Virus record (IMG/VR): IMGVR_UViG_3300032223_000428
Location: 1 to 64,000 of that record
Length of the DNA stretch: 64,000 nt
Strand: one strand, 5' to 3'
DNA from: a virus
Shown: positions 20,501 through 48,756 of the stretch, in pieces
How the letters are laid out: every line of letters begins with the position of its first letter
How positions within the stretch are numbered: position 1 is the stretch's first letter
Program-made: the position numbers and the translations under genes
The notes under the pieces: generated by a model
What the model was told of the DNA's origin: nothing
Seen by the model: the letters and a program-made list of their open reading frames with translations, nothing else
Databases searched by the model: none

Positions 20501-23500
20501 TGTAACTGTGCTCTTTTGTGTTATTGAATCAGTAGCAAACAGTGGCTCATTATAACCTTGTGTTTGAGAAAGATATAATGCATCTGTTGAATCTGCTGCT
20601 ATGTTTGCATATCCAACACCTAATAATGCCAAAGTACCTAGAGCACTTCCTTGAGGATTGCCAATTATACTAGAGTAATATGCGAAATTACCAGAATTGT
20701 ATACATTAATTAAATTAATGCCATTTAAATATGCTGTTGGGTAAACCCAATCAGTTCCTTTGTAAAATCTTATTGCATATCCAACACCTGCAGTAACTGT
20801 CGCCCCAGAAACATTACTAAATCCTTCAATCAGAGTACTCTGAACTGCATCACTGCTTGTAATATAAAGAGGTTTAGAAGCCAACAGTGTTGTTGGTGTG
20901 GCAGTTACACTATTAGAAGCTAACTGCCATAATTGAATTGATCCTGCTGTTGTTCCATTACCAACAGCACCAGCACTAGGAATAATAATTGAACCAAGTT
21001 GTCCAGTTTTTGGAGCAATGAATGAAATACCCCATCCATCAGTTAGGTTTCCAGGAAATACATAACTAGAATAATTACCAGCACCAGTTCCAAGGTCATA
21101 CGCATTAACTGCAAAATTTTCTGCTGCTAATCCAAATTTTGGAATAGCTCTAACAGAAGAATCTAATGCAGATCCTGCTTCTGCATCTGCTGCGTAATAT
21201 GTGCTAGCTGCAACTACATCAATATCAGTTGCATAGGATTCTTCTGTAGAATTTACAGTGAACCTAAAAATATTATTTGTATCTGTTGATGGAGCAAACC
21301 ATGTACTTCCATTATTTGCTATTGGAGTATATACAGATCTTAAATACCAATATATTGGTAAACCATAGAAGGATCCACCTGTTAATATGTTATGATAACC
21401 AACAGCATCATGTCTATAAAGACCTAAGTAAGAAGATGCAGAAGAAGACCAATCTGAACCAGCAGTAACTGTAACTGCATATGCAACACCAGAAGTTAGT
21501 GATAGATTAGCAGAAGAAAAATCAATATTTACTGGTACATATGCATAAGGATAACCAGTTGTTTTAGAAACAAGTCTAAAACCCACATTAGTATAAGAAG
21601 TTGTTGGCCATGCACCAACTAATGCCTCCTCAGAATACACACCCCATAAAGTAGGAAGAAGCGGAAATGAACCATCGGGGAGGGTAATGCCATATCCACT
21701 AAAACTTCCACGTAAATTTGCTCCAACCTGTATATCAATTTGAGATGTATTGTTTTCATAGAACACTGCTTCCCAAAGCAGTGTTGGAGAACCAAGTGTG
21801 CCAACAGTATTAGCAGTTCCTTCAAATACAATACGATATGTTCTATTTGGAGCAGTACCCTCTGTTCCATAATATATACGTTGTGCAGAATTATCTGTAG
21901 AAGATATGCAAATTTTTGGAACTGCTGGGTTTGCTGCATCTACCGCAACATATTGAGTGGCACCAGCACCAAAAGTTAAATAACTATTAGTCCCAACAAA
22001 AACTGTGCTATAAGAATTACCAAGATAATTTACACTCCATGGTAAAGAAAGTGTCCAGTATCCATCATCATTATTACCAGCAGTTGGAGTTGTGCTAGAA
22101 GTTAAAGAAGCTGCGCCAAGTAAACTATTCGTGATAGATGACATCGATTGTATTGGCGATGGCAAATCATTTAAAGAAAAGTTTCTAGATGCTAATAATG
22201 TAGATGGATTACCAGTAAGAGTATTGTTATTTAACTGCCACAGTTCAACTTTACCTGTAGAAATAGGTGGGGTGCTAGAAGATATACTATTGTTAATTCT
22301 GTATGCATTAATTTGAATATTTGAAAGAGTCTTAGTTTTATTTGCAATAAACTTTAAACCCTTACCATATCCACCACTGGTAATTGGTTCACCAATAGCT
22401 GCTTTTGGATATGTTCCAGTTGATATAGATGTAACAATAGTATCCAAGAATGGAGAAGTATTGTTTATGTATGCACCAGCAGTATTTGTTTGAGATAATG
22501 ATTCAGATGCTGTTACAGTTTCAGTTATAGGAATAGCATTGATAGCATTTTCTACATCAACAGCAGTAGATGCATATTCAATAGTCATAATAGGGCTATT
22601 TTGGTATGTGGACCACAAAGTTCCACTAGCAATAGTTCCGCTTGCGCCTATTGGCGTTGAACTAGTAGCATAATAAATATAATAATTAGAAGAATATTTT
22701 GCAAACTCTTGATACCACTGGTCAGAGCTGGTTGTTGGATTACTAACAAATAATAATCCACCACTAGTCGCATAGTTTCCAGTATTTACCCAATCACTGC
22801 CACCAGCAAGTAATATTGCATATGATGTTCCATTAGTAAGAGATGCACCAGAAACTGTGGAAAAATCAAATAATGGCGAATAACTTCCATTTACATAACC
22901 ACCATTTATGTAAAATGGTATTGATGCAAGTAATGTTGAAGTAGCTGTAGCTGTACCAGGGGCAGCGGCAAGTTGCCATAATTCTACTGCACCTGCTGTT
23001 GTAGTTGAAGAAGTTAAACCACCATTTGGGAATGCCTGTGCAAGTGCTACTTTCCCTAATTGTGCAGTTCTAGAAGCAGTGAATGCAATACCATATTTTT
23101 GATTGGCATACAGAATTTGAGCATTACCTCCGCCAAAAACGCTTCTTACAAAATCCCATGAATCAAATAACGCATTACCATCATCACCATTGATTACACT
23201 TTTTTGATATCCTAAAAACGATTTATAAGTTGTTGAAACATCACTAGCATACAAACCTTCTAAAACAAATGCTGGCACAAATAAATCTTGTGAAGTAGTT
23301 ACTGTTCCAGATTCGTTTATTGTTTGATTAGATGATAATCCAGAAAGAGAAGAATCAGAACTAGAACCTGATTCTGTTATTGTGTATGCTTGATAAATTA
23401 CGCTTGCGGCTGCGCTGGCTGCTGCTGAGGCAGACTCTTTGATTACACTACCACGTGATAATGGTAATGCACTTAATGGTGCTGACGATAAGGGAGAAAA

Positions 23501-23509
23501 ACCTAACAT
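14504..23509 (-). CDS. Giant (3001 aa) modular fibre/adhesin-like virion protein
   Basis: MLGFSPLSSAPLSALP N-terminus; TETGxAxE stalk repeats; six LWQL...GSDW beta domains; three ...WY...[GP]Q[LFV]E[LI]GS CBM-like domains. Confidence 0.8.
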   Translation of the reverse strand: MLGFSPLSSAPLSALPLSRGSVIKESASAAASAAASVIYQAYTITESGSSSDSSLSGLSSNQTINESGTVTTSQDLFVPAFVLEGLYASDVSTTYKSFLGYQKSVINGDDGNALFDSWDFVRSVFGGGNAQILYANQKYGIAFTASRTAQLGKVALAQAFPNGGLTSSTTTAGAVELWQLAAAPGTATATSTLLASIPFYINGGYVNGSYSPLFDFSTVSGASLTNGTSYAILLAGGSDWVNTGNYATSGGLLFVSNPTTSSDQWYQEFAKYSSNYYIYYATSSTPIGASGTIASGTLWSTYQNSPIMTIEYASTAVDVENAINAIPITETVTASESLSQTNTAGAYINNTSPFLDTIVTSISTGTYPKAAIGEPITSGGYGKGLKFIANKTKTLSNIQINAYRINNSISSSTPPISTGKVELWQLNNNTLTGNPSTLLASRNFSLNDLPSPIQSMSSITNSLLGAASLTSSTTPTAGNNDDGYWTLSLPWSVNYLGNSYSTVFVGTNSYLTFGAGATQYVAVDAANPAVPKICISSTDNSAQRIYYGTEGTAPNRTYRIVFEGTANTVGTLGSPTLLWEAVFYENNTSQIDIQVGANLRGSFSGYGITLPDGSFPLLPTLWGVYSEEALVGAWPTTSYTNVGFRLVSKTTGYPYAYVPVNIDFSSANLSLTSGVAYAVTVTAGSDWSSSASSYLGLYRHDAVGYHNILTGGSFYGLPIYWYLRSVYTPIANNGSTWFAPSTDTNNIFRFTVNSTEESYATDIDVVAASTYYAADAEAGSALDSSVRAIPKFGLAAENFAVNAYDLGTGAGNYSSYVFPGNLTDGWGISFIAPKTGQLGSIIIPSAGAVGNGTTAGSIQLWQLASNSVTATPTTLLASKPLYITSSDAVQSTLIEGFSNVSGATVTAGVGYAIRFYKGTDWVYPTAYLNGINLINVYNSGNFAYYSSIIGNPQGSALGTLALLGVGYANIAADSTDALYLSQTQGYNEPLFATDSITQKSTVTAYTGQVHTSSQAPFLSTFSTPHGNGGYSVWGTTGGNLSCGRTFIAGFTGPVSYLEFDLINTYGGVRPAPVQTGYAQLWQLASNSISALPNTLLGQIAVMPSIATTSGGPVRIDFSSLNITLTSGVGYALAITAGSDWDLTNTQYLAVYANSDNLYIPYNSTPITRSANTGIWAIALVSEPYQFNMAVYSTYNTADVTDSSQVTTPFVGEQAAASDTLNTIRGQNSSIGERVEEPIFDMSPELSYTGTPRAGLEYAAGQTFISNYTGLVKTISLTMFASGSSDSTNPGYFQLWQLASNSISAIPSSLLLSYPVYVSDIRSSYISGGDQRVVVDVSSLGVSVTSGVAYGLVFLNGSDWNTTGGPSTVCGPRGRYIGISNFTTDYEGKTKSFSSSYPAASNTWYVNTTLQNDYLYPWTITGYVPSDTNTFTISAASAATEVGYSLDTSASLKRIPGAIVETSSGIAPLFNDYQFSTISGDANSMNANSRTGWGFTATTTGQLGKVSWVRSSTGGSGNYSNGNANPSVSNGALELWQLAGAPGTAATILVASIPVAATDFPSTGPAPLWDFSNISGAVLVAGISYAVIFSTGSDWNYTSTKTWSIQTQNSNGTDPAAWFGYRVGKTYYYGTGTVGTTTGLTSGFTWDTTTNPYINPVPPLSIEYSTNTSETPISGLLINKNITENSNTTATDSGIGNIPGAGETVYENVGITATDTKTTTVAFVSDRTETGTATETETSQANFYPVITENTGISATESGTQSTSGAVNTITETGSAIEAEDRTLTATRDVTETGTAAETEDRTLTATRDVTETGSANETEDRTLTATRDVTETGSANETEDRTLTATRDVTETGSANEQESNIITTSQSVTENTGISATDSGSNIISTTQVLTETGTATENETSQADFYPAITETGTATETESNKSVQYSSNLETTRKNIYANSDIFGSGWSVNNGTLTSTALTTDPFGGNGAYRLAEDTLNTIHREVYTTPHIAGTVYTLSVYVKADTRSKFVFFHEEGNSANRAGLQLDLIAGTKINYFTGTGTITSSTLTNEGNGWYRASFTFTATTNLSGVTHTFRLIDNLGNFTYTGDGTSGLFIYGPQFEIGSLTAYQANNTLDSDVGIITTNQSTNETGNASETETQTVFQVQYNTETGTATETETSQANFYPVITETGTGNESNSGSNSTNQSTNETGTASDSETTSLSALNQLWEYTSTNIIKYPNDISASPWTTYNSTLSTNVAVAPDGTQTADKIIGNSGVTIRKSVYYGGAYLTQNTTYTYSVYLKQAGFTNATIWFDIPFANIGPNGYQGAGALINLTDGSTSGTTPTVTTVTSVGNGWYRCSVTGTTKLPWQFGVAGMIPANLQISLGDANGVGTATGDGTSGIYVWGSQLELGSSVTAFVDPNETVTQTNVITTTQSLTETASASDSEISQANFYPAITETGTSADSPVGNWTTSSNSSETGSASETESTQIGFVSSLLENTNKNLFYVPSDLSNSIWIKAGSSTITSGQTDPNGDTTAFLLTANLAFSSIYNITPGILPGTYTVSVYVKYGTSTYFTIVNESTTGVDPVAHSATFTMSGTPVLQGASNATATLTSVGNSWYLATMTYTLIAGATFRPKFWVGSYSGTAFTGQTVYLWRPQVELGSSVTAFVDPNETVVQSSIITTNQVLTETGNASDSETSQANFYPVITETGTGNESNSGSSTTTQTRTETGSAAESESSSAAFVSSNTETGSASETETNIITTNQALTETGNASDSETSQANFYPAITETGNVSDTDSASAVDLGNIVETLLGQDLSTVQTAFISSIQEALNAIETDFGNNVSNRSAAEILSAVDSSTGLPFYAVNINELLNAVVSAVTALPAFITETGSLTAAQFATQLATAGILEQINANETELAQLILTSYVTEITVAGESTVVWIFYPMDYELVSSRPSMLIDSYSDEIYFDDIDVFYLDASKIMADIDVTVDQIYIDNIDVIYGNIALIDSAIDDEIYI
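15193..15490. repeat. 58-bp exact direct repeat (15193-15250 / 15433-15490) within the giant gene
   Basis: ctggatagaaattagcttgagatgtttctgaatcagatgcatttccagtttcagttaa occurs twice, 240 bp apart. Confidence 0.9.
15524..16329. repeat. 50-bp exact direct repeat (15524-15573 / 16280-16329) flanking one CBM-like domain
   Basis: aactgtctcgtttggatctacgaacgcagttacagaagaacctagttcta occurs twice (encodes ELGSSVTAFVDPNETV). Confidence 0.9.
17941..18200. repeat. 60-bp coding tandem repeat, ~4 copies (TETGSANETEDRTLTATRDV)
   Basis: Lines 17941 and 18001 are identical; 18061 and 18121 are near-identical. Confidence 0.95.
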
Positions 23510-27471: not shown

Positions 27472-28512
27472 TTAATCGTTAAGAATATTTTGATAGTTTT
27501 TAAGAAGAAATAACCACTGTTGATTCGTAAACTGTAACACTGATGTTCCTTTAGATTTGTTTTTGGAGTAGTGTTCCTCTCCGAACAAATCTCTAAGAGC
27601 CTCTCTCATCTGCCATCTATGAGTACTAGAATCACCACGAACTTTAATAAAAGGTTCATTAGTAGTCATGGACCAAAGTTGAAAATCATCTGTAGCGAAA
27701 AATGGAATTATTCTCTCTGCCTTTTCATTATGCATCATTGTTTTATGATCGTATAAACCAGTATACCAGTTTAAATTAAATAGACAATACCATCTTAAAT
27801 CATAGATCGTTTCGATTTTCCTATGAGATGCTTTAATCATAGGATCGAAAAACTCTAACAATTCTGGATTAATATGTTTCTCATAGGATTCATAAATCGT
27901 ATCTTTATTACCTAATTTGTAGTGAAACGCCATAGATCCATCTGTATCGAACATGTCATCAGTTGGACCAAATAAATGATTGGCACACATTCCACTAACG
28001 AAGATACAATCTATTGCATTAAAAGAATGCACATTAGGTGGAGGAACCTCTATTCTATATTTAAATTCATCTTTAAGTCTTCTATCAAATAAGTCACCAG
28101 ATTCTATTAAAGAATTAAATGTACCCCAGACTCTAACTTGATCTGGATCATTTGAATAATATTTTAGAAGAAATAAAATAAAAGTGCTATCAAGTCCTCC
28201 AGACCAAAGAACATGAATAACTTTGTTTTGATTTAATAACTCTTTGGCTCTTTCTTCACAAACTTCCATAAAAGTTTTATTAAATGGTTTTATGGCAGGA
28301 AGATGATTAGATTTATCAATGTTTAAATAATGCGGTAAAATACCAGATCTATCGTAAACCATATTACTAGAATTTAATCCTAGTTTATTATAAGTTTCCA
28401 ATAATGAATCATCAAAATCTTCAGATAAAAATGGTACCAATACATTACGATGTGTTTTTATTAAAGATGGAACCTCTTTATAATTATAATATAAAATGTC
28501 TTTTTTAAGCAT
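27472..28512 (-). CDS. Asparagine-synthetase-like N-type ATP pyrophosphatase (no glutaminase domain)
   Basis: PP-loop VLWSGGLDST; FVSGMCANHLFG (cf. lsGeGaDElfG); IIPFF..DDFQ.W; late K.K motif. Confidence 0.7.
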   Translation of the reverse strand: MLKKDILYYNYKEVPSLIKTHRNVLVPFLSEDFDDSLLETYNKLGLNSSNMVYDRSGILPHYLNIDKSNHLPAIKPFNKTFMEVCEERAKELLNQNKVIHVLWSGGLDSTFILFLLKYYSNDPDQVRVWGTFNSLIESGDLFDRRLKDEFKYRIEVPPPNVHSFNAIDCIFVSGMCANHLFGPTDDMFDTDGSMAFHYKLGNKDTIYESYEKHINPELLEFFDPMIKASHRKIETIYDLRWYCLFNLNWYTGLYDHKTMMHNEKAERIIPFFATDDFQLWSMTTNEPFIKVRGDSSTHRWQMREALRDLFGEEHYSKNKSKGTSVLQFTNQQWLFLLKNYQNILND

Positions 28513-28522
28513 AGAATCAAAC

Positions 28523-28546
28523 TAAAAGTGGGGTTAAAACCCCACT
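28523..28546 (-). terminator. Hairpin / probable intrinsic terminator after the DctP-like gene
   Basis: Minus strand AGTGGGGT-TTTA-ACCCCACT followed by TTTAGTTT. Confidence 0.55.
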
Positions 28547-28564
28547 ATAATATATTTTTTATAA

Positions 28565-29497
28565 TTAAGATTTAAGTTTATCAATAAGTCCTTCAGAAAA
28601 TACATCATTGTATTTTCCATAAACAGAAGATGTCGCCTGTTTAATTTTGTCTTTTTCTTCTTGTGTTAATTCAACTATTTCAATTCCCTCAGTTTGACAT
28701 GCAGTTTTAATAGCTTCAAGATTTGGCATAGAAACGAATGCAGCATTAGTAGAAGCAGTTAATAATGCTTCTTTAGTTTCATCATCTAATTCATCAAAGA
28801 ACATTTTATTAATTACAATGCAACCTAGCGATAGACTATGTTCAGTATCACTAACATATTTAAAAGATTTACTCTTTATTAAAGGTAGTAAATTAAAATA
28901 ATCTATTTCTGCAGAATCAATAATATTAAATTTTGCGGAAGAAACAATATTCTGATATTCGATATTATGGACTGGAGTAGATTCAATAGACTTAAACGTC
29001 TCATTAGAAACAGAGTTATTTCCTGTTTTAATTTTTTTATCTTTAAATGATGTTAATGTATCGCATTTAACTTTAGAAGCTATTACATTAGCTCCATTAG
29101 AAAACGTGAATTTTAATGCTTTGATACCAACTTTATTTTCTACACCAACCAATAGGTCAGATCCAGCTTCTCCATTTAATACAGTATAAGCATCTGAAAT
29201 GCTGTCGAAAATAAATGGTAATTGCAATGCATCAAGATCTTTATTGATATCTGCCAAGACTTCAGTTGGCAAAATACCCATAGTAATATCACCCTTACCA
29301 ATTAGGTGTAGGATATTACGTGGATTGCTGGATGAGTCTGGTGCATATTTCTCAACATATTCAGAAGAAGACATTACTTCAAAACTGAGTTTATCACTAC
29401 ACTTTTGGTCTACTTCTTTAACGAAAGAATCTGTAACATTAAAAGATACATCGAATGGATCCACAGAAACAACCCATTTTACTTTTTTAATTTCCAT
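28565..29497 (-). CDS. TRAP transporter solute-binding protein (DctP-like), no signal peptide
   Basis: L..GDITMG, LDALQLPFIFDS, L.GEAG..LL, D.K.KKIK, H.L....IVINK.FFDELD.ETK.AL..A, GIEIVEL..EE. Confidence 0.8.
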   Translation of the reverse strand: MEIKKVKWVVSVDPFDVSFNVTDSFVKEVDQKCSDKLSFEVMSSSEYVEKYAPDSSSNPRNILHLIGKGDITMGILPTEVLADINKDLDALQLPFIFDSISDAYTVLNGEAGSDLLVGVENKVGIKALKFTFSNGANVIASKVKCDTLTSFKDKKIKTGNNSVSNETFKSIESTPVHNIEYQNIVSSAKFNIIDSAEIDYFNLLPLIKSKSFKYVSDTEHSLSLGCIVINKMFFDELDDETKEALLTASTNAAFVSMPNLEAIKTACQTEGIEIVELTQEEKDKIKQATSSVYGKYNDVFSEGLIDKLKS

Positions 29498-29789
29498 TTT
29501 TTATTTCTCCTAATTTACTAGTATCGAACGACCAACTGCTTGTTTGTTGTTCTATTGTTCTTTGAGCGATCATTATCTTACTATTTATAAAGTATTTTAG
29601 TATGTCCATTGTAAACTGTTCTCTATTTTCAAAACATTCCAATGGAATCAAAGTATCTCTAGACTCATAATTTTTGTTATTAGAGTCGTAATAAAATACA
29701 TCTTTTATACAAAAATATTCAGTAGTGTGTTTTAATATTCTAGGATACTGTCTTATTTCAACCATGTATCCTTCAAAAAATGAACTCAT
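29487..29789 (-). CDS. Hypothetical protein
   Basis: 100-aa ORF overlapping both neighbours (ATGA coupling with the radical SAM gene). Confidence 0.6.
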   Translation of the reverse strand: MSSFFEGYMVEIRQYPRILKHTTEYFCIKDVFYYDSNNKNYESRDTLIPLECFENREQFTMDILKYFINSKIMIAQRTIEQQTSSWSFDTSKLGEIKNGN

Positions 29790-31177
29790 GCAACCACCGA
29801 AATTGGTATAATTTTTCTTGGTTTTCTAACATTAGATGGTTTACCATTAGTCCACCAGAATATATCTTTCCTATCTTCCCTTAGTGGACCTTCGATATAT
29901 TCTGGAATGCACCCAGTAATTTCTTCTATTGCTATACTAAACATAACGATATTATCACTAAATGCATTATCGCATGATGCATCCCATAGTGGTCCAGAAA
30001 GAAACATACATGCACCTTTACATATATGAATAACAGGACAGTTAGGGCACTCTTTTCTATCACTCCAATGAGTGGCAGTATTTAATTGAGAAGAATTTAA
30101 ATCAGAGATATGTCCTATCTTATGAGACATTCCTGCAGGATTATTAGAAACTGCGCTAACATTCTGACATGTCAAAACATTACCATTTAAGTCTAATGCA
30201 ATAGAATCTGATTTATCCATACCACACTTTTGTGGTAAAGATTCTATTCTAGAACCATTCTTAATAGAATTTAAAAATGTATTAAATTTACTGCCAATTA
30301 CAGAAAATCTGCTGGCACCACCACGTCTTAATTCATCTAGAGAAAGATTTCTAAATTTATTATCCTCTTCCCCATCCAATAATGAATTGGCAAGACCACC
30401 TTCATCATAAGCATCAACGAACGCACCTTCACCAATAGTTAAAAAATCACAGTATTCTTTTCCAATATTATCAGTAATAAATTTGATAAAAAATTCTTGG
30501 ATTTTTGTTCTGCTTATATTTTTAGAGTTAATCATAGAATTAAAACTAAAACGACGTTTAGGTGCCAATCTTTTATAAAGATCTAAAATGGCTTCTTTTG
30601 ATACTGGATCGTCAAAAGGATCTGGTCCACGAACTGGTTGTCCTGGACCATCATGAGAAACTGCAATACCAAACCCTAAAGATTCTAGCCAGTCATTCTT
30701 TTCTTTATCCAATAAACTACCATTAGTGATAATACCCATATTGCAATTTGGATATTTTTGTTTAATCGCTTCAGCTAAAGGTTTTAGTGTTTTCCAATAA
30801 ACAAATGGTTCACCACCCCAAAATTCAAAGGTTGTATTTTTTCCTAATAAATCATCTCCTCCCTCAAACCATGAGGACATATTTTCTACGAAAGGGAGAA
30901 CATCATCGGGATTGGTTTGATCGGCATGAGGAACGAAACGCTGGTTGCAATAATCACACTCGAAATTGCATGAAAGACCTAGCTGTATTTTTACAGTCTT
31001 TAGGTCTTTCTTCCCATGTTCTATTTTTGCTGGAGCCAGAACATCTGGTTGTGTCATTACATTATCATAAATTGGAGTTCCATCTTCCCATGTTAATGTA
31101 CTAACACTACTATCATAAATTATCACTTTATGTTTTTGTTCTTTAACATCCCATGATTTAATTTCAAATTTTGCCAT
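29786..31177 (-). CDS. Radical SAM enzyme with SPASM domain
   Basis: CNFECDYC (CxxxCxxC), FWGGEP, ITNGSLL, SHDGP; SPASM cysteines KCG...LTCQ...CPNCPVIHICKGAC...SCD. Confidence 0.95.
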   Translation of the reverse strand: MAKFEIKSWDVKEQKHKVIIYDSSVSTLTWEDGTPIYDNVMTQPDVLAPAKIEHGKKDLKTVKIQLGLSCNFECDYCNQRFVPHADQTNPDDVLPFVENMSSWFEGGDDLLGKNTTFEFWGGEPFVYWKTLKPLAEAIKQKYPNCNMGIITNGSLLDKEKNDWLESLGFGIAVSHDGPGQPVRGPDPFDDPVSKEAILDLYKRLAPKRRFSFNSMINSKNISRTKIQEFFIKFITDNIGKEYCDFLTIGEGAFVDAYDEGGLANSLLDGEEDNKFRNLSLDELRRGGASRFSVIGSKFNTFLNSIKNGSRIESLPQKCGMDKSDSIALDLNGNVLTCQNVSAVSNNPAGMSHKIGHISDLNSSQLNTATHWSDRKECPNCPVIHICKGACMFLSGPLWDASCDNAFSDNIVMFSIAIEEITGCIPEYIEGPLREDRKDIFWWTNGKPSNVRKPRKIIPISVVA

Positions 31178-31222: not shown

Positions 31223-31229
31223 TATTTAG
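31223..31229 (-). promoter_or_regulatory. Candidate late promoter (CTAAATA) upstream of the radical SAM gene
   Basis: tatttag overlapping the stop of the upstream ORF, 46 nt before the rSAM ATG; same motif as before gp18, gp25, gp2 and gp4. Confidence 0.4.
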
Positions 31230-32146
31230 ATCGTTTTAGTGAATGTGGTTTGAGCAAGCCAAAACTTAAATCCAATTTTAACTGAAACTGTATCTCCAGA
31301 ATCTAATCCTGTAGTTATAACTTTAAAAGAACCAGTTCCATTAGTTAATGGAATTTTTGTTTTTGGCAAAAATCCAGTATTTGTTTGTAAATATAAAAAA
31401 TCAATTCTTTCATCGGTTGTTACATTCACAGTAATAACATCACCAGAAATACTCGAGGTCGTGTTTATCTGAGCCATTAATTCTTCTGGAGGAGATATAA
31501 ATTCTTTTAATAAAGATAAACTAGTATCAACTTCTATAGTATGATCAGCGAAGCCAGTTCTATCTACAATATTATCACCACCTGGTCTAACAGTTTTTGG
31601 TGGATAATAATCTCTTGTGTCAGATATCGCCATTGGTTTTTGAATAACCAAAATAATGTCATCAGAAGTAGGATTATCACTTGTGACAAAGAAATTAAAT
31701 AAAGATTTACCACCAAAAATATTATTCACACCATTCCCATATGATAAAGAATATGCATTATAAATTTTATCAGATGGAATTGTGGTAGAATTAGTAGGAA
31801 GTAAAGATTCTATAAAATCCTGATCAATTCCCCATGCTGTTTGTGCTGGAGATTTTAGTAAAGGAGTGATATCAATTAAAAAATCATAAACTTTTAAATT
31901 TTCTGTAGTGTTAGTTAATACAATTTTAAATAAATTATCTTGTACGTTCTGTATTTCCCATTTAAAATGTATTGGAGTAGTCTCCCATAAAGGGTGATCT
32001 CTTAAGTCATCTTGTATTTCTTGAGAAAACTCTGATGCGTTATCCCAATCTAAATTTGGATATAATCCATGTTTCCAATTTAAACTAATAGTATTATTAA
32101 CAAAAGAATATTTTCTACTATCTGTTAGTCTTAGTGCGTATTTCAT
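31226..32146 (-). CDS. Hypothetical protein with C-terminal Ig-like beta domain (fibre/rSAM-associated)
   Basis: 306 aa; C-terminal LYLQTNTGFLPKTKIPLTNGTGSFKVITTGLDSGDTVSVKIGFKFW; sandwiched between fibre and rSAM genes. Confidence 0.65.
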   Translation of the reverse strand: MKYALRLTDSRKYSFVNNTISLNWKHGLYPNLDWDNASEFSQEIQDDLRDHPLWETTPIHFKWEIQNVQDNLFKIVLTNTTENLKVYDFLIDITPLLKSPAQTAWGIDQDFIESLLPTNSTTIPSDKIYNAYSLSYGNGVNNIFGGKSLFNFFVTSDNPTSDDIILVIQKPMAISDTRDYYPPKTVRPGGDNIVDRTGFADHTIEVDTSLSLLKEFISPPEELMAQINTTSSISGDVITVNVTTDERIDFLYLQTNTGFLPKTKIPLTNGTGSFKVITTGLDSGDTVSVKIGFKFWLAQTTFTKTI

Positions 32147-32155
32147 GCATATTCC

Positions 32156-33484
32156 TTAACAATTACAATTGCAGTTAATACAATTTAAATAATGGTGATG
32201 TGGGTCAAGACCTGTGCCAGTATCTAAATGTTCTCTTCCATAACAATTATATGAGTGAAAGAAATGAGAATATTGGCCATGATTACCAGATCCAGCACCA
32301 CGCCCCCAGACACTAACGAAGCTGTTTACCTTTGTATTGGCTGCTACTGCCATATCATTTGTGAACTGTGATAGATGTCCTGGTCTACCTTGAATACCAC
32401 CCCATGGTGCATGTGAAGAATGGTGAGTAAAGTCACTACTATGTGCCGCATGAGAATAAGAACTATTGAAGGCATGACTGACATTAGAAACAATAACAGC
32501 ACCAGTGTTACCCTGAACAGATGATACTGGAACAGAAACGATTACGTTACCAGTCGCACCATTAACAGATTGAACTGGCACGTTAACAATAACAGCACCA
32601 GTGTTACCCTGAACAGATGTAACTGGAACAGAAACGATTACGTTACCAGTATTACCCTGAACAGTTAATACGTTTGCATTAATAGTTGGGTTACCACCAG
32701 TACCATCACCATTCTGAACAGTAATACCTGATCCTGCAGCTATAGATCTTACCGTTGCAGTCGCTGCGCCAGTTCTAATGTAAATACCGTTAGACGAAAC
32801 ACTAGAAAGACCAGCAAGGTTATTAGCATATGCTTGGACATCTGTACCAATTGTTAAACCTAGACCAGTACGAGCAGTTGCTTGATCGGCAGACGCTTCC
32901 AATCCACGCATAAATGCAGAAGAAGTATATGTACCAGCTGTTCCTACCCCAGTAAAATATGGAACAGCACCAGCAGCAGAAGATACACTGGCCAGTGCAG
33001 CAAGTTCAGCATCATAAGCCTGAACGTCTGTGCCAATTGCCAAACCCAATGCAGTTCTTGCAGCAGGGGCATTATTAGATCCAGTACCACCAGAGCCAAT
33101 AGGTAGAGCAGTTGTAAGTGTTGTAATAGAACCACTAGTAATTGCTGCTACGCCAGTAAATGTACCAGAAAAATTCGTAGCTGTAATGGTGTTACCAGCG
33201 AAGTTACCAGAACTATCACGAACTACAACAGAACTTTTATTGACACCTGCAGGTAATGCAGAAGATGTATCTAATCCATCTAGAAAGTCAGCGTCTAGAA
33301 GAGAACCTGTACCATCAACGGTAATAAGTTTAGCCAGTACATCTGCAGCAGTATAACTAGCAGCAGTAAGACCTGTTTGAAGAGCTGTATTGAGGGCTGA
33401 GAAGTTATTATCAACTTCAGTATTAGTAAGAGGACTGCCCTTAGTACCTCTTAACGTAATGGTTGCAGCGGATATATTTGCCAT
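32156..33484 (-). CDS. Tail fibre protein with His-rich, Asn-Cys-repeat C-terminus
   Basis: ITLRGTKGSPLTNTEVDNNF N-terminus, LDADFLDG, GGTG...AARTALGL, ~5x VxSVxGxTG repeats, ends PHHHYLNCINCNCNC. Confidence 0.85.
   Translation of the reverse strand: MANISAATITLRGTKGSPLTNTEVDNNFSALNTALQTGLTAASYTAADVLAKLITVDGTGSLLDADFLDGLDTSSALPAGVNKSSVVVRDSSGNFAGNTITATNFSGTFTGVAAITSGSITTLTTALPIGSGGTGSNNAPAARTALGLAIGTDVQAYDAELAALASVSSAAGAVPYFTGVGTAGTYTSSAFMRGLEASADQATARTGLGLTIGTDVQAYANNLAGLSSVSSNGIYIRTGAATATVRSIAAGSGITVQNGDGTGGNPTINANVLTVQGNTGNVIVSVPVTSVQGNTGAVIVNVPVQSVNGATGNVIVSVPVSSVQGNTGAVIVSNVSHAFNSSYSHAAHSSDFTHHSSHAPWGGIQGRPGHLSQFTNDMAVAANTKVNSFVSVWGRGAGSGNHGQYSHFFHSYNCYGREHLDTGTGLDPHHHYLNCINCNCNC
32490..32670. 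repeat. 45-bp coding repeats (VPVxSVQGNTGxVIV), ~4-5 copies
   Basis: Recurrent ttaccctgaacag and ctggaacagaaacgattacgttaccag. Confidence 0.85.
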
Positions 33485-33501: not shown

Positions 33502-33738
33502 TCAATCTTTTTTATTCATAAATTCGATAATTAATGATTTTATCTCTTTTAGATCATTCTTTATATTATTTATGTCTTCTTCATGCTGAGAAATTTGACG
33601 ATTACGATCTTCAGCGATACGTCTTCTTTCCATATATTCTTGATATTCCGTTTGACTAGTATTGATGATAGCCCCAGTCGAAACATCTCGAACTAGGCTA
33701 TCATGACCAACAACTTTTAAGTAGTCCATTATGGGCAA
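33502..33738 (-). CDS. Conserved small T4-like phage protein
   Basis: YLKVVGHDSLVRDVSTGAIIN...coiled coil INNIKNDLKEIKSL; follows the large structural gene. Confidence 0.7.
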   Translation of the reverse strand: MPIMDYLKVVGHDSLVRDVSTGAIINTSQTEYQEYMERRRIAEDRNRQISQHEEDINNIKNDLKEIKSLIIEFMNKKD

Positions 33739-36700
33739 GCAATAAGTCTAAAATCTTTAATAATTGGGACTGCAGCACTGTTTGCAGACTGCATTACTAG
33801 TTTAACCACAACAGTATCAAAAGGAATCATATTATTTAATGTATAGTCAACATCATAAAATGTGTTGTTTCCATTATCTACTTTGGTTAAACCAGTTCCA
33901 TCAGCTGTAGCTAAAGTATATTTAGTTGTGTCTAGTTGGGAAGCATCACCCAAACATGTTTTATAATATACCTTAACGTCTGCCTCACTTGGGCAATTTG
34001 CACTCAATTTAATTCTAGTGTATGTAGAAGAATTTGCAAATTTTACAGGTGTGGTTACATATTTACTAATACTATTGCTACCAACTGGAGCGATCTCGTC
34101 AAAGAATAGTTCTTTCAGAGAGATAGTTGTACCAGAAGCTGCAGCTTCCGAAGCCATAACTGCCTCTGTAGAAGCAGTAGATGATACGTTAACTGTTGCT
34201 GTTGTTCCATTATCAGAGAAACCAGTAACTATCCATGTTCCATTATTAGAAGTAGTTGTAGCACTGGCAATAACAATGTATCTACCAATACCAAGTCCTG
34301 ACAATACGCCTCTGGCTGTTGAGTTTGTAGAAGTAATAGAAGATGGATTACCAACATATCCAAGAAGAGCACTACCATGATAAGCAGTACCAAATGTATG
34401 AGATGGAGCACTAGTACTACCAGTTCCACCGATCAAACAGATGTATAATTTATTACCATAATAATACTGAGTTCCTGCAGTCAAAGATTGAGAACCAGTT
34501 AAAGTTAACAATGTTCCAGTAATGGCAAAGTTAAATGCACCAGAAGAACCTATGTGAACTTGTTTCAAATCTAATGCAGCCACGTTAGTGTTTGCTTCTG
34601 TTGGCCAGTTTAATTTATTTGAAATTAACTGAACGCTAGAACGTGCAGTATCTATAACTGGAGAGACTGAATCATTTGTAGTGGAAATCTGTGCAGTTAA
34701 TATTAAAGATGGAGAACGAGTTGAAGGATCTAATTCTGCAGCAATAAGTTTTGTCTGTTTAAAGATATTATCTTGTTTCATCAAAACTGATGTAGAAGTA
34801 TCTGTAGAATATGCAGTTTGATTACCATCCATTGATGTACCAGTAGTTGTTGTAACAGAATAACTTACTTTATTATCAGAGAAAGCCTGAACTTCCATTG
34901 TTGGGTTTAAAATATCATAAGTGATATTATGTGTGGCTCTCAATAAATTACCACCAGCATATCCAGTACTAGTTGCATTAGTAGCAGTTGTTATTGTATA
35001 ACAATGCATATCTACGTTGCTAACAGTTTTACTTCCACTAGACAAAGTTGGTGCAGAGCATATTTCTGTGTATGGAATTCCATTAAATGTTGTTAATGAA
35101 ATATATGTTAATACAGCAGTACCATTAGTTGCTTGGCCAACAGTATGAGTTGGCGCAGAAGATCCAGTGGTTCCAGCAGTTGTTACCTGATAAACTTTAC
35201 CACTTGATATTACATAAGAGTTTAATGTAACTGCAGTAGATGCTGCCCATGTTGTCGATCCATATGTAATCCATGGCACTGTAAGTTTAACAGATGATGC
35301 TGTTACAGGACTGAAACCATGGTTAGGGTGCCAGACTCTTACTGTGTTGCTTCCACTAACAGTCTGTAGAGGATCGCCATAAAGTTGATCATATGGTAAT
35401 ACGTTATTAACAAATGATACGTTGGCGATCGAATTTGTAGTAAACTTAGCACGATATAAAGTAAATTTAATATCTTGATTTTGATCTGGAGTCCATGTTG
35501 AAGCATTTTGAGACTTAAACATTACACCAGCATATGGTTGCTCAGAAATAGTTCTACTAGTTCCAGGAATCTCGTCACCCATATTAGAGATCCAAACTTT
35601 ATAATTGTTTGAATCTGATTGGATAACGAAACAATATTCTTGACCATCCATCACATAAACAGGTGCATCAAATTTAAAATTAGTTGCAACATTATAGTCA
35701 GCGTAAGAATTTCCATCCCATATTGTTACTGGATTGTATCCAGAAGCTGTAGGATCTGCACCAGCAACTGGGGCATTAACCGAATCTGATTTCAATGATA
35801 CTGTACTAAATGGAAGAACATATTTTCCTGGAGTACCATTAACTATTTCACGAATAGAAACAGTGACAGGAATATTTGCATCTTTAGTTGCAAAGAAAAT
35901 ATCAATAGATGTTAAGAATGCTCCACCTTTATTTTGAACCAAGAATGATTGTGCAAGTGGATCATACCAACCAGTATCAGAAATAACTGTTGTAACCCCA
36001 CCACCATAACTTCCATCTTTAGATAAAGTTTGGTACATATTAGGATTATTTGCATCATAATTAATCTGTTCTTGAACATATTCTGGAGATCTAATAGATT
36101 GAACTACAGATTGAACAGTCTGTAGTGTTCCAGTAGCATCATACATGCCCATAGCACGTGATGTATAGTTTCCGAATGCTGTAGAAGAATCAACTAGTTT
36201 AAGTTGAGACTTGCCAGTTCTGAAACGAATAGATTCAGTATTTGGAATATAGTATAAGAAATTAAGTTCACCAGCCTGATTAGTGGTTAAAGTAGTATTA
36301 ACTGTTGTTGATATTACAGTACCAGTAGCACTATTATTAAGAGTACCAGTGATAGTTTCGTTTGCACTGAATGTTCCAATAATATTGACTAAATCTAAGG
36401 CATATGAAGTTGTACCATCAGAATTTAATATTGTATATTTTCCAACAACTACAGCAGAAGCTGTTTGTGCCTGATTATTGATGACATCACCTTTTGTTAA
36501 ACAAACCTGTGTATCACCAGCTATTCTTCGCTTAGCATCTGTACCTGCACCACCAACATTTGTTGTAGTATCAAATAATTTATGTGTAACCAGTTTGGCA
36601 GAAGAAGTTGAGCCAGTTGGCGTATAAATCATCGTTGTTGTTGGAGTGCAATAGTCAGAAACTGCAATCTCATTAAAATATGCATAGAATCTTGTATTTG

Positions 36701-39700
36701 GTTTTAACCCTTTGGCTTGAACCAATAAATTTCTAGATCTTACATAAGGAATCATTGCTGTAGAAAGAACCTTATCGCCAACAGTGACTCTATCTGTTTT
36801 AGGAATAACAGATGTTTTAGTTCCTGTTCTAGATTTAAATCCAGTTTGTGACCATGTAGTTACACCTGTAGTAGATGTTGTTAGAGATCTAAGAGCCATT
36901 CCACCATTGGCTGACCAATTTCCACCTAGATTATTTAATTGATCTCTACTTGTACTATTTTGATTATATGATTGAATCGTTGATGGTGCAGTAGAAGATT
37001 GAACGCCATTCCAATGGTCATTCCATTCTCCCCAAATAGGGAATCCATTATTTGAATCAACCCAATTTTTAACAGCGGTATAATTATCAATATTCTCAAC
37101 CAATTCTGGCGCACGAGCAGTATCAAACCAATCATCAGATGGTGGATTAATTTGAACAGTTCCTAAGAATGTAAATATTGCAAATGGATTAACATTCTCA
37201 AGTCTAGATGCATATCCTTGTTTAATAAATTCTTGTGATGTATATGGTAAAGTTATAACATCACCAGTTAATTGATATCCTGAAGAAGTTCTAGCAGCAG
37301 TGTTAGAATTTTGTTCAATTAAATCAACATTATGGGATGTGTGCGCTGGACGTAATAAGTTATTCTTCATATCAATAGAACAAACATAGTCTTTTGACGT
37401 AGTATTTGCTAATGAAGAACCACCGAAATTGTCAACGACAAATCCGTTTTTCATTCTATCAAGACCAGTACTATCTGTAATTTTAAGTGTACTAGTTTCT
37501 GCTTCTAATAAAGATAAAGAAGTATAGTATTCTAAGTTATCAATACGTTTTTCAAGTTTACCAATATCACGCATTGTGTAGCGTTTGTTATCGACTTTAA
37601 TGACAGCTACGCTAGATGTAGTAGTACCAAATGTATATGGTTCTAATGTTAGATTATAAAGAACCATCGCATTGGCTGGTGCTGTTGGCTCTCCTGGAGA
37701 AACAGATGAAACACCAAGAACATCAAAGAATGTTCCATTTTTATCAATAGAAATTTTATCTTTTCTACCAAGATAATAGCTAAAGTCTAATGTTGTATAT
37801 TCACCTCGTTTTGGTGGATTAGACCATGAAGAGCCAGTACCAGCAAATACTCTAGTAGAAGCATTAACAGATTTATTGGCAACTCTTGGACGGAAGTCCA
37901 AAGAGTCTCTCAATAGAGGAGGAATTTGTTTATAATCTATCGAATAAGAATCTCTATCAAAATAATCTCCAGCACCATGTTCAAAATATTCATATTGAAT
38001 TTGAATTGGATTTGATGGAGCTGTATATGAAGGTAATAGATTTAATCTACCCAAATCATAATGAGTAGTTCTTTGTCCATTATCAAAACTGTAACGCTCA
38101 GAGATATCTTGTGTATAATAAGAAGGGTCTTTAGAAGCTGTACCACTAAAAGACAATGATGGAGCCATCTTAATGCTTATAATTCTAAACACATCAGCTT
38201 TATCTAATAATAGAGTTGTAGCCTGTGCAGTATCAGCAGTAATAAAGGTATCATGATCTTTTGTACCATCACTAGAGATTGGTGATACAGTTGTGGTTAA
38301 TGATTTAGTCTTTTCGAATCCTGATCCACTTTTCTTAACTGCAGCAATAACTGAATATGTTCCAGCTGATGGGACAGTTATGGTTACGTTACTTCCAGAA
38401 ACAGAAATTTTATCATATGTAATATTCTGTATACTTCCATCAGAATCTTTAGTTACAATATAATTGTCCTGATCTGCAGCTGGAGCAAATGTTCCAGCGA
38501 CACTTAAACCAAGAGATGTAGTTGCTGTTGTGACACTGGTAAATTTAACGTATGAATAGTAGTTTAAGTTATTAACACCACCACTACCAGAAGTTCTTAC
38601 ATTCTTAACAGAAGAATATGGAAGTGGGAAAATTAATGATGTATTTGTTGCTTCATTAATAGCAGTACTTGCAATTTGCATTGCACCACCACTAACTGTA
38701 ATTGCTGAATCAACAGTTATTGAAGTTTGGCTGTTAATTGCTGTAACTTTACGATAACTAGAAGCAGAGCCATCAGTGATTAAAAGATAATCATTAAGTT
38801 TAACATCAGTTTGGAAAGATGTTCCAGTACCAGTTAAAGTGGCAGAAGCAGAAGCAGTGACAGATCCAGTTATTTTAGTTAATATAGGTTGGATATCTGC
38901 TGTGAAGATAAGAGTGCCACCTGGATTATAGTATATTGATTTTACGTTTCTGCTAAAATCATAACCAGAATACATCTGAATATCAAATAAACCCAATTTG
39001 TAAATCGATGTGCTACCATATGGAAGGACACTTTGCCATTCCATAAAACGAACACGTGCGGTTCCAACTGCAGTTCCTAGATTGGATGCTGTTGTAGTTC
39101 CTCTATATGATGATCCAGATAATCCATTATACAATGTAACAATACCAGCACTGTCTACTGGTGGTGGGTTATACACGTTTGTTACATTAATGTAATTTCC
39201 GATTGTTGGTGCCAATACTGAACTTGTTGCTTGTTCATAATCTCTGGCTTTTGGCACTGTTAAGTATGATGTTCCAAGTTTTTCAATCTCAACACCTCTA
39301 ACATAAGCCTTACCAGCTTCTAAACCAATAGCCAATTTTGTTTCATCACCATCTAAATTAATACCACGATTGTATAGTGGATTTATATCATAGAACCATG
39401 TGATAGTACCATCTGATGCATTACCAGATGTATGAGTTGGAGCTGTACTACCAGAAGTTGCGCTAGTTCTAGCTGTATAAGTTAAACCAGCATTTGTTAC
39501 AACATCACCAATTATATAAGCAGTATTCTGTGTCCACTGCCCACGATTATTATTTCTATGTTCACGAACATCAATGTTAAAATCACGAACAGTGTAATCT
39601 CCAGATTCATCATAAGTACGACGTGCAAGTTCGACATCAATATCTGAATAGATCTGATTTAATGGATTATCAGGAACAATTGTTGCAACTTGTCCATTAG

Positions 39701-48456: not shown

Positions 48457-48756
48457 TTATTCTATGAAAGTCTTTGCAGAACCTTGCGCCACAGTATCAC
48501 CATCAGCAATCCCATCATTAATTCTTGCAGCAAGATTTCCTTCAAAATAGGTTTTAGAAGCTCCAGAAGTTATTTGGCGAAGACTTGTTTGGTGTGTAGT
48601 TCTACCAACTGTATGTGCATCAAATTGATCCCCAACAACACCAATTAAACCCTCAGCAACATAACTTTTCGTGCACTGAACCAACGTGTTTAAACCAGTA
48701 GGAGATCCACCATCGGATCCTGCTGATAATGCACCTTTGTATGTCACTGCTGCCAT
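48457..48756 (-). CDS. PAAR-like spike tip protein (gp5.4-like)
   Basis: 99 aa; VGDQFDAH...H, GASKTYFEGNLAARINDGIADGDTVAQGS; directly after gp5. Confidence 0.8.
   Translation of the reverse strand: MAAVTYKGALSAGSDGGSPTGLNTLVQCTKSYVAEGLIGVVGDQFDAHTVGRTTHQTSLRQITSGASKTYFEGNLAARINDGIADGDTVAQGSAKTFIE

What the first reader, a model, noticed from the sequence alone, without database searches (positions are those of the whole stretch)
29786..31177. Phage-encoded radical SAM/SPASM maturase in a tail gene cluster
Seen: a complete CxxxCxxC motif plus a seven-Cys SPASM pattern (C..C..CxxCxxxxxCxxxC..C), a ~55-aa N-terminal extension (IIYDSSVSTLTWEDG) and a C-terminal RKIIPISVVA tail. This architecture differs from the usual phage rSAMs (NrdG, QueE). 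The N-terminal extension might serve substrate recognition (inference).
Basis: partly seen in the sequence, partly recalled or inferred. Interest (0 to 1): 0.7.

Follow-up and report, generated by a model that had tools for sequence, protein, structure and literature searches.

The report
Radical-SAM enzyme for phage fibre tips
This marine phage carries a radical-SAM enzyme of the peptide cross-linking kind next to a tail-fibre gene whose product ends in an Asn-Cys repeat; enzyme and repeat travel together in nearly every related phage and prophage sampled, so the enzyme probably modifies the host-binding fibre tip, a reaction described in none of the papers I searched.

Summary
ORF 29786-31177 (-) encodes a 463-aa radical SAM protein with CxxxCxxC (C70/74/77) and a full seven-Cys SPASM motif (TIGR04085, 35.2 bits against a cut-off of 27). 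It also has a conserved 55-aa N-terminal extension and a basic/IPI C-terminal tail.

It belongs to a large, uncharacterised phage family (phrog_1802; 257 clusters at E<=1e-30). It reaches no curated NCBIfam subfamily cut-off. Its closest structures are CteB (Z 23), ChlB and anSME.

The informative evidence lies outside the given coordinates. The tail fibre two genes upstream (32156-33484) ends ...HHHYLNCINCNCNC. About 64 of 67 loci found through the enzyme have an (X-Cys)n tail upstream, with X = Asn 73%, Asp 10%, Ala 9%. In the reverse test, 29 of 33 loci found blind through NCNCNC-stop carry the enzyme downstream.

My best reading is that it installs thioether-type cross-links in the fibre's C-terminal tail. 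The substrate link rests on this two-way association; the chemistry is inferred. The N-terminal extension has the three strands of an RRE but not its helices.

This clade replaces the 2OG oxygenases of other clades with a 100-aa protein, a leaderless DctP-like protein and an Asn-synthase-like PP-loop enzyme.

The scan has already noted this system on other DNA (146 notes). No paper I searched describes it.

The parts
29786..31177 (-). Radical SAM/SPASM enzyme, 463 aa (phrog_1802 family). It has 3 + 7 conserved Cys, an N-terminal three-stranded sheet (residues 3-30) and a C-terminal basic/IPI tail (454-463).
32156..33484 (-). Tail-fibre protein, 442 aa. The shaft resembles phage tail fibres. 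The last 107 aa hold all 14 His and all 5 Cys, and every Cys is preceded by Asn.
   Evidence: PHROG tail-fibre hits; tblastn to tail fibres over residues ~85-300 only; composition
32159..32185 (-). C-terminal NCINCNCNC tail, the proposed substrate site. It contains two overlapping NxxC motifs at residues 437 and 439.
   Evidence: conserved in all 14 fibres of this clade
31226..32146 (-). 306-aa partner protein (cluster c3, the RSP15 ORF047 family). It is all-beta, with a C-terminal intimin/invasin-type Ig-like domain (225-306) and a near-invariant VKxGFKxF motif.
   Evidence: within 4.5 kb upstream of the rSAM in 53 of 72 loci
29487..29789 (-). 100-aa conserved ORF of unknown fold. Its start overlaps the rSAM stop by 4 nt.
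   Evidence: no hits
28565..29497 (-). DctP/TRAP solute-binding-protein homologue without a signal peptide, 310 aa. It overlaps the 100-aa ORF by 11 nt.
   Evidence: Pfam DctP 4.8e-27, NCBIfam TRAP_S1 85 bits; alignment
27472..28512 (-). Stand-alone Asn-synthase-like PP-loop ATP pyrophosphatase, 346 aa (SGGLDS at residue 104).
33502..33738 (-). 78-aa virion structural protein (phrog_473), always found just before the fibre gene in this clade.
28527..28546 (-). Terminator-like hairpin between the DctP-like and PP-loop genes.
   Evidence: consensus match only

Best explanation
The gene encodes a three-cluster radical SAM/SPASM enzyme. I propose that it post-translationally modifies the extreme C-terminal (Asn-Cys)n tail of the tail-fibre protein encoded two genes upstream.

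Proposed mechanism. A tail Cys thiolate binds the open iron of auxiliary cluster I. The 5'-deoxyadenosyl radical abstracts a hydrogen atom from a neighbouring Asn, at the beta- or alpha-carbon. The resulting carbon radical then couples to the sulfur. Repeating this along NCINCNCNC would give a short ladder of thioether rings. That ladder would rigidify or covalently staple the host-binding tip of the trimeric fibre.

The 306-aa Ig-like protein is a dedicated partner, either an adaptor or chaperone for the tip or a cap on it. The 100-aa, DctP-like and PP-loop proteins are clade-specific tailoring or presenting factors. They take the place of the 2OG-Fe(II) oxygenases seen in other clades.

What is shown: the enzyme class, cofactor motifs, predicted fold, gene order, and a two-way statistical link between enzyme and tail. 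What is inferred: that the tail is the substrate, that the chemistry is thioether formation, and the roles of all the partners.
For: Enzyme class.

Cluster ligands: the family conserves only 7 SPASM Cys for two auxiliary clusters. That is consistent with one open iron site, as I recall for CteB from the literature; I did not check CteB's or anSME's ligand counts here. A review proposes that NxxcB activates the Cys thiol by chelation to an auxiliary cluster (PMC9389541).

Forward association: 50 of 67 enzyme-anchored loci with at least 4.5 kb upstream have a called ORF with (X-Cys)>=3 within 6 kb upstream on the same strand. A looser six-frame scan (runs of two or more units) adds 14 more. The motif occurs in 65 of 382 upstream ORFs against 3 of 959 elsewhere.

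Reverse association: a blind IMG/VR scan for NCNCNC-TAA gave 65 hits at the ends of open frames of at least 60 aa. Of the 33 with at least 4.5 kb of downstream DNA held, 29 carry the enzyme, lying from 250 bp before to 3.6 kb after the match end.

Breadth: the pairing spans T4-like marine myophages, Ralstonia phage RSP15, Achromobacter phage JWF and JWF-like prophages of Limnohabitans, Polynucleobacter and Paraburkholderia.

C-terminal position matters: in JWF gp028 the ladder NCNCDCNCNCSC (297-308) is followed directly by a Hint self-cleaving domain, so the mature fibre would again end in the ladder.

Acceptor residues: X in the repeats is Asn 73%, Asp 10% and Ala 9%. [quoted passage not shown]

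Precedent: a SPASM enzyme installs thioethers on a whole protein in CrpC/CrpA (PMC13692751).

Tip specificity: the fibre tip (residues 300-442) has no match in phages of the collection, whereas the shaft does.
Against: No biochemical data exist for any member of the family. The enzyme scores far below every curated thioether-maturase model, so the chemistry cannot be transferred by homology. anSME is almost as close in structure (Z 19.5). The N-terminal extension lacks the helices of an RRE. The His/Cys-rich tip could be a metal site in its own right. Four of 33 NCNCNC-tailed ORFs had no enzyme in the DNA held, and 3 of 67 enzyme loci had no clear repeat. The hosts are aerobes, so the enzyme must tolerate an aerobic cytoplasm.
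Confidence: 0.6

Rival explanations
1. The substrate is the same, but the chemistry differs. The enzyme oxidises tail Cys residues without cross-linking, for example to formylglycine as anSME does, or it epimerises or otherwise edits the tail. This would give reactive aldehydes or D-residues at the fibre tip.
For: anSME is a close structural neighbour (Z 19.4-19.7, TM 0.63-0.66). JWF gp030 was annotated by its depositors as an anaerobic sulfatase-maturating enzyme. EpeE and YydG epimerases also appear among the sequence hits.
Against: TIGR03942 scores 39 bits against a cut-off of 349. The fibre has no C/S-x-P/A-x-R motif. The family conserves 7 SPASM Cys, not the 8 I recall for anSME. The alternating Asn/Asp/Ala acceptor pattern fits thioether enzymes.
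Confidence: 0.13
2. The (Asn-Cys)n/His-rich tip is a metal- or disulfide-based folding motif that needs no enzyme. The rSAM acts on another virion protein, such as the 306-aa Ig-like partner.
For: The last 107 aa hold 14 His and 5 Cys. From my recollection of the phage T4 literature, fibre tips can bind iron or zinc through His. The c3 protein is nearly as constant a neighbour as the fibre (53 of 72 loci). In a sample of 201 Burkholderiales genomes, c3 occurred only in genomes where the enzyme lies 1-3 kb away (3 of 3).
Against: c3 has no conserved Cys, and only a few conserved Gly and Lys residues. Many tails lack His altogether. Small 81-134-aa ORFs that consist of little more than a leader plus an NC ladder sit 1-15 bp from the enzyme gene in other phages. 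That arrangement is what one expects of a precursor and its maturase.
Confidence: 0.12
3. The cassette is a metabolic or host-takeover island inserted in the variable host-recognition region. The rSAM, the PP-loop amidotransferase and the DctP-like binder would together make or capture a small carboxylate-bearing molecule, such as a modified sugar acid or a cofactor.
For: The pelagimyophage paper notes that radical SAM cassettes come and go in the hypervariable host-recognition cluster, which also holds LPS genes (PMC7029224). DctP proteins bind small organic acids. The sugar-modifying enzymes BtrN and DesII appear among the structural hits.
Against: The DctP-like and PP-loop genes are confined to this clade plus one prophage, whereas the enzyme-tail pairing is near-universal. 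The nearest structures are peptide and protein maturases, well above DesII and BtrN (Z 23 against 15 and 12.7). No transporter or pathway genes are present.
Confidence: 0.08

Closest known systems
NxxcB/NxxcA (streptococcal RaS-RiPP; Cys-S to Asn beta-carbon thioether)
   Same: The substrate motif matches. NCNCNC reads as overlapping NxxC units, at residues 437 and 439 of the fibre. The acceptor spectrum N > D, A matches the native Asn and the tolerated Ala, Gln and Asp of NxxcB (PMC9389541). In the working model for NxxcB the Cys thiol is activated on an auxiliary cluster.
   Different: The substrate here is the end of a 442-aa virion fibre, not a short leader-core peptide. Repeats are contiguous and C-terminal. 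The system is phage-encoded and sits in a tail module. Sequence kinship to NxxcB was not tested, because no model or sequence of it was on hand.
CteB/CteA (SCIFF, thermocellin) and PapB/PapA (freyrasin), the ranthipeptide thioether maturases
   Same: CteB is the best structural match (Z 23.3, rmsd 3.5 A over 319 residues, with the alignment starting at residue 1-2). PapB is the best NCBIfam hit. The family has 7 conserved SPASM Cys.
   Different: Scores are far below the family cut-offs (50 against 340; 30 against 425). Only the three strands of the N-terminal RRE are present. The substrate is a structural protein.
CrpC/CrpA of Methanococcus voltae (TIGR04463; PMC13692751) and QhpD/QhpC
   Same: These are SPASM enzymes that install thioether cross-links on a Cys-rich protein rather than a peptide. 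The CrpA evidence came from its C-terminal tryptic fragment.
   Different: The host domain, substrate sequence and biology all differ. TIGR04463 scores 30 bits against 525 and TIGR03906 scores 42.8 against 453.
anSME (anaerobic sulfatase-maturating enzyme)
   Same: It acts on a full-length protein without a leader or RRE, and it is a close fold match (Z ~19.5).
   Different: The sulfatase motif is absent. The family has seven conserved SPASM Cys rather than the eight I recall for anSME. TIGR03942 scores 39 bits against 349.

Membership tests
Radical SAM superfamily (PF04055) | CxxxCxxC cluster motif and a partial TIM-barrel core | tested here: met
   C70/C74/C77 are invariant in 104 of 104 representatives. 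Pfam scores 29.6 bits against a cut-off of 29.5. The fold matches rSAM structures at Z 10-23.
SPASM domain (TIGR04085) | Seven-Cys motif Cx9-15Gx4C ... Cx2Cx5Cx3C ... C for two auxiliary [4Fe-4S] clusters | tested here: met
   35.2 bits against a cut-off of 27, over residues 318-392. The motif positions are exact and conserved.
phrog_1802 (phage radical SAM domain-containing protein) | Profile match over most of the length | tested here: met
   E 2e-62, 212.8 bits, residues 41-409.
PapB ranthipeptide maturase (NF047865) | Score at or above the curated cut-off of 340 | tested here: not met
   50.1 bits, mainly over the N-terminal core (best stretch residues 60-178).
SCIFF maturase CteB family (TIGR03974) | Score at or above 425, and a full N-terminal RRE | tested here: not met
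   30.3 bits. The model has three strands and no helices before residue 60. It is nevertheless the best structural neighbour.
anSME (TIGR03942) | Score at or above 349, eight Cys ligating the auxiliary clusters, and a C/SxP/AxR substrate motif | tested here: not met
   39.1 bits. Only 7 SPASM Cys are conserved. The motif is absent from the fibre. The eight-Cys figure for anSME is from my recollection of the literature.
QhpD (TIGR03906) and CrpC family (TIGR04463) | Score at or above 453 / 525 | tested here: not met
   42.8 and 30 bits.
NxxcB-type beta-thioether synthase | NxxC acceptor-donor motif in the substrate | tested here: met
   Two overlapping NxxC motifs in the tail. X composition is N 73%, D 10%, A 9%.
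NxxcB-type beta-thioether synthase | Sequence kinship of the enzyme, and a short leader-core precursor | not tested
   No NxxcB model or sequence was available in the libraries used. The substrate here is a 442-aa fibre, although 81-134-aa NC-tailed ORFs occur in related loci.
RRE / PqqD-like recognition element | Three-stranded sheet plus a three-helix bundle (winged helix) | tested here: not met
   The model has strands 3-10, 15-22 and 27-30, then a loop up to residue 60. There is no PqqD hit in Pfam. Partial superposition on the N-terminal domains of CteB and TigE is suggested only by the alignment ranges.
Thioether-forming activity itself | -2 Da per cross-link, loss of free thiol, 5'-dA formation stimulated by substrate | not testable with these tools
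   This needs an experiment.

The most novel reading that the evidence does not exclude
The modified (Asn-Cys)n tail is not only cross-linked internally. It is also activated at its C-terminal carboxylate, by the Asn-synthase-like PP-loop enzyme in this phage and by the Hint thioester in JWF, and then ligated to another virion component. A candidate acceptor is the near-invariant Lys of the VKxGFKxF strand in the Ig-like partner. The result would be an enzymatically welded, thioether-braced receptor-binding tip.
Probability: 0.1. Interest if true: 0.9.

Novelty: new variant of a known kind. Interest (0 to 1): 0.8.

Why it matters
If true, phages use the radical chemistry of peptide natural products (RiPPs) on their own virion, at the fibre tip that contacts the host.

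That would be a new class of virion post-translational modification. It appears to be widespread: 257 clusters at 50% identity with E<=1e-30, found in abundant marine and freshwater T4-like phages and in many Burkholderiales prophages.

It would bear on how fibre tips gain stability or specificity. It would also explain the "radical SAM cassettes" already noted, but not interpreted, in pelagimyophage host-recognition clusters (PMC7029224). It would give enzymologists a new substrate class, a contiguous X-Cys ladder at a protein C-terminus, and it might offer a tool for stapling proteins.

The idea is directly testable in cultured systems such as RSP15 and JWF.

Tried and rejected
Tools and searches that failed or gave nothing:
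- The search for related loci with the c3 alignment failed because it has no conserved stretch. I used genome searches instead.
- A distant DNA search of the region found only a short fibre-shaft match.
- The 100-aa protein gave nothing in Pfam, PHROGs, NCBIfam, a PDB profile search or the ESM Atlas.
- c3 gave only generic Ig-like matches in PDB, and only uncharacterised phage proteins in BFVD.

Hypotheses considered and dropped:
- A 7-deazaguanine pathway (QueE plus QueC). The rSAM has a SPASM domain, the PP-loop protein looks Asn-synthase-like rather than QueC-like, and none of the neighbouring ORFs scanned matched FolE, QueD or DpdA.
- A TRAP-transporter metabolic gene. There is no signal peptide and no DctQ/DctM.
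- An MqnA-like enzyme. The protein is a full-length DctP homologue.

Literature searches found no description of the system. I searched for NCNCNC, for radical SAM with tail fiber and thioether, for SPASM with prophage, and for JWF with radical SAM. One apparent hit, in Chromobacterium, concerns the unrelated XYE system.
Full report
OBSERVATION

The ORF at 29786-31177 (- strand) encodes 463 aa. Its cluster motifs are:
- CNFECDYC at residues 70-77.
- C318-x13-G332-x4-C337.
- C377-x2-C380-x5-C386-x3-C390.
- C402.

Pfam Radical_SAM scores 29.6 bits, just over its cut-off of 29.5. NCBIfam SPASM TIGR04085 scores 35.2 bits against 27.

WHERE IT SITS

The window is an IMG/VR contig of 76.6 kb, estimated to be about half a genome. 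PHROG hits identify a T4-type baseplate and tail module, all on the - strand: gp6-like wedge, gp5-like hub, tube cap and tail fibres. The gp6 homologue is about 40% identical to those of Pelagibacter phages Mosig and HTVC008M and Methylophilales phage Melnitz. This is therefore a marine T4-like myophage whose host is unknown.

[quoted passage not shown] It gives no function (PMC7029224).

THE ENZYME FAMILY

The best PHROG match is phrog_1802 (2e-62). A full HMMER search of 1.84 billion cluster representatives found 257 at E<=1e-30.

In NCBIfam the top hits are PapB, geopeptide maturase, DynA, QhpD, CbpB, YhhB and anSME. All lie far below their cut-offs, and most matches cover only the N-terminal core. 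The protein therefore belongs to no curated subfamily.

An AlphaFold2 model built on 104 representatives is confident (pLDDT 95, pTM 0.93). By VIA-align its nearest solved structures are:
- CteB: Z 23.3, rmsd 3.5 A over 319 residues.
- ChlB: Z 20.8.
- anSME: Z 19.4-19.7.
- TigE: Z 19.1.
- DesII, SuiB, viperin and BtrN: Z <=15 (Foldseek).

The family conserves exactly ten Cys, three in the SAM-cluster motif and seven in SPASM. The other three Cys of this protein are not conserved. Seven Cys for two auxiliary clusters would leave one iron without a Cys ligand. As I recall, CteB has such an open site and anSME (eight Cys) does not; I did not check those counts here. For NxxcB, a review proposes that the substrate Cys thiol is activated by chelation to an auxiliary cluster (PMC9389541). 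The open site in this enzyme is an inference.

THE N-TERMINAL EXTENSION

It is present in 102 of 104 representatives, with Y21, D22, S26, L28 and G33 conserved. In the model it forms three beta-strands (3-10, 15-22, 27-30), followed by a less confident loop up to residue 60. There are no helices.

A PqqD-type RRE is a three-stranded sheet followed by three helices (my knowledge of the RRE literature, not checked here), so this is at most the sheet half. Alignments to CteB and TigE start at model residue 1-2, while those to anSME and ChlB start at 54-58. This hints at partial superposition on their N-terminal domains, but only the ranges are reported. Substrate binding by strand addition is plausible and untested.

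THE KEY FINDING LIES OUTSIDE THE GIVEN COORDINATES

I collected three sets of loci through the enzyme: 23 IMG/VR relatives, the cultured phages RSP15 and JWF, and 80 bacterial-genome loci. The last set is mostly JWF-like prophages of Limnohabitans, Polynucleobacter, Paraburkholderia and other Burkholderiales. I then clustered all neighbouring ORFs.

Three partners recur upstream on the same strand:
- A tail-fibre protein, in 56 of 72 loci.
- A ~240-340-aa protein, c3, in 53 of 72 loci.
- 2OG-Fe(II) oxygenases, in 47 of 72 loci.

The fibre proteins end in a run of alternating X-Cys. Examples:
- This window: ...DPHHHYLNCINCNCNC-stop.
- Prophages: ...YNFNCNCNCNCDCYC and ...TNCNCNCNCCGC.
- RSP15 ORF048: ...NTNCQCGN.
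- One phage has three tandem 86-87-aa ORFs, each ending in NCNCNC.

In JWF gp028 the ladder NCNCDCNCNCSC (297-308) is followed directly by a Hint domain. Self-cleavage of that domain would leave the ladder at the mature C-terminus. This argues that a C-terminal position is required.

QUANTIFYING THE LINK

Forward direction. Of 67 enzyme-anchored loci with at least 4.5 kb upstream, 50 have a called ORF with ([NDAQSTG]-C)>=3. A looser six-frame scan, accepting runs of two or more units, recovers the motif in 14 of the remaining 17. The motif occurs in 65 of 382 upstream ORFs against 3 of 959 elsewhere in the same loci. In the 64-kb window, the only such run in a plausible gene is the fibre's end.

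Reverse direction. A blind scan of IMG/VR for DNA encoding NCNCNC-TAA matched 109 stretches, of which 80 were returned as loci. Sixty-five hits are at the end of an open frame of at least 60 aa. Of the 33 with at least 4.5 kb of downstream DNA held, 29 carry the enzyme on the same strand, from 250 bp before to 3.6 kb after the match end.

Composition of the repeats. In 82 distinct runs from enzyme-anchored loci, X is Asn 73%, Asp 10% and Ala 9%. Runs have 3-7 units, and 61 of 82 lie within 5 residues of the C-terminus.

The fibre itself. Its shaft (residues ~85-300) matches tail fibres of many phages, but residues 300-442 match nothing in the phage collection. The first 335 aa hold no His and no Cys. 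The last 107 aa hold 14 His and 5 Cys, each Cys preceded by Asn.

THE PARTNERS

c3 (31226-32146). The model (pLDDT 80) is all-beta. The C-terminal domain, residues 225-306, matches intimin and invasin Ig-like domains (Z 9.3, rmsd 2.3 A over 79 residues). A near-invariant VKxGFKxF motif lies at the C-terminal end, and no Cys is conserved. BFVD holds only uncharacterised phage look-alikes. In a sample of 201 genomes of the Limnohabitans family, c3 occurred in 3 and the enzyme in 4. All three c3 genomes have the enzyme 1-3 kb away.

The clade-specific trio. In this window's clade the oxygenases are replaced by three genes:
- A 100-aa ORF whose start overlaps the rSAM stop. It has no detectable relatives of known function.
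- A full-length DctP homologue with no signal peptide (Pfam 4.8e-27).
- A stand-alone Asn-synthase-like PP-loop protein, with SGGLDS at residue 104 and Atlas structural neighbours in the Asn_synthase, NAD_synthase and QueC families.

The block keeps together and is permuted as a unit in two loci. A Polynucleobacter prophage also pairs the enzyme with the PP-loop protein. The roles of these three proteins are unexplained.

MECHANISM

Chemistry known for the nearest families gives the best-supported reading. A tail Cys binds auxiliary cluster I. The 5'-deoxyadenosyl radical abstracts a hydrogen from a neighbouring Asn, Asp or Ala carbon. The C-S bond then forms, and the step repeats along the ladder.

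NCNCNC reads as overlapping NxxC units. NxxcB makes Cys-to-Asn beta-thioethers in NxxC, and besides Asn it tolerates Ala, Gln and Asp as acceptors (PMC9389541). That is close to the residue set seen in the phage repeats. CrpC/CrpA shows that a SPASM enzyme can install such links on a whole protein (PMC13692751).

I put about 0.8 on the tail being the substrate and about 0.5 on thioether chemistry specifically. Rivals are:
- anSME-like oxidation, or other editing of the same tail.
- A self-sufficient metal-binding tip, with the enzyme acting on c3 or another protein.
- A small-molecule island.

NOVELTY

The enzyme class and the likely chemistry are known. The substrate class (a contiguous X-Cys ladder at the C-terminus of a virion fibre), the phage setting and the partner set are described in none of the papers I searched.

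Earlier notes of this scan describe the same pairing on other DNA: 146 notes in at least 107 genomes. I reached the tail, the Hint domain and the partner results before reading those notes. I used one of them only as a lead to the CrpC paper, which I then read.

Noticed in passing
L002:6670-8121 (Achromobacter phage JWF gp028): The fibre carries NCNCDCNCNCSC at residues 297-308, followed directly by a Hint/intein-like domain that starts at C308 (CFPAGTMVLMADG). Self-cleavage would expose the ladder as the mature C-terminus. L067 has the same layout.
   Followed up: partly
L026:3799-4608: Three tandem 86-87-aa ORFs each end in NCNCNC, upstream of two c3 copies, three 2OG oxygenases and the rSAM. 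Elsewhere (for example L119, L130, L141), 134-aa ORFs ending in NCNCNCNCNCNCNC lie 1 bp from the rSAM gene. These look like precursor-sized substrates.
   Followed up: partly
window 29786-29815 (rSAM residues 454-463): The C-terminal basic stretch plus (I/V)IPI motif is kept in 61 of 98 close relatives by a strict pattern. It is less conserved in distant ones and is modelled without secondary structure. It might be a docking strand.
   Followed up: partly
window 32156-32480: All 14 His of the fibre lie in its last 107 aa (HAAHSS, THHSSH, SHFFHSY, DPHHHY). This could be a metal site next to the Cys ladder. Several clade members lack the His runs.
   Followed up: no
window 28565-29497: The DctP-like protein is only 33-37% identical to its counterparts in the clade, which are much more alike among themselves (alignment mean column identity 72%). 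At the position where most have YRVVPA it reads ANVIAS, so ligand binding may differ.
   Followed up: no
window 14504-23509 and 33729-40505: Two giant ORFs of 3001 aa (no Pfam hit) and 2258 aa (DUF4815, 1.2e-52) flank the fibre cassette. The 2258-aa protein is syntenic with RSP15 ORF044.
   Followed up: no
window 48756-51791: The gp5-like hub protein also matches an endolysin/chitinase-type domain (phrog_181, residues 257-446) in addition to the hub/lysozyme family.
   Followed up: no
L148, L154, L159, L184: Four phage ORFs of 185-203 aa end in NCNCNC but have no rSAM in the 4.9-11 kb of downstream DNA held. Their endings are ...ELCGLENCNCNC and ...NPYVNGSSNCNCNC. They may be chance matches or a different arrangement.
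   Followed up: no
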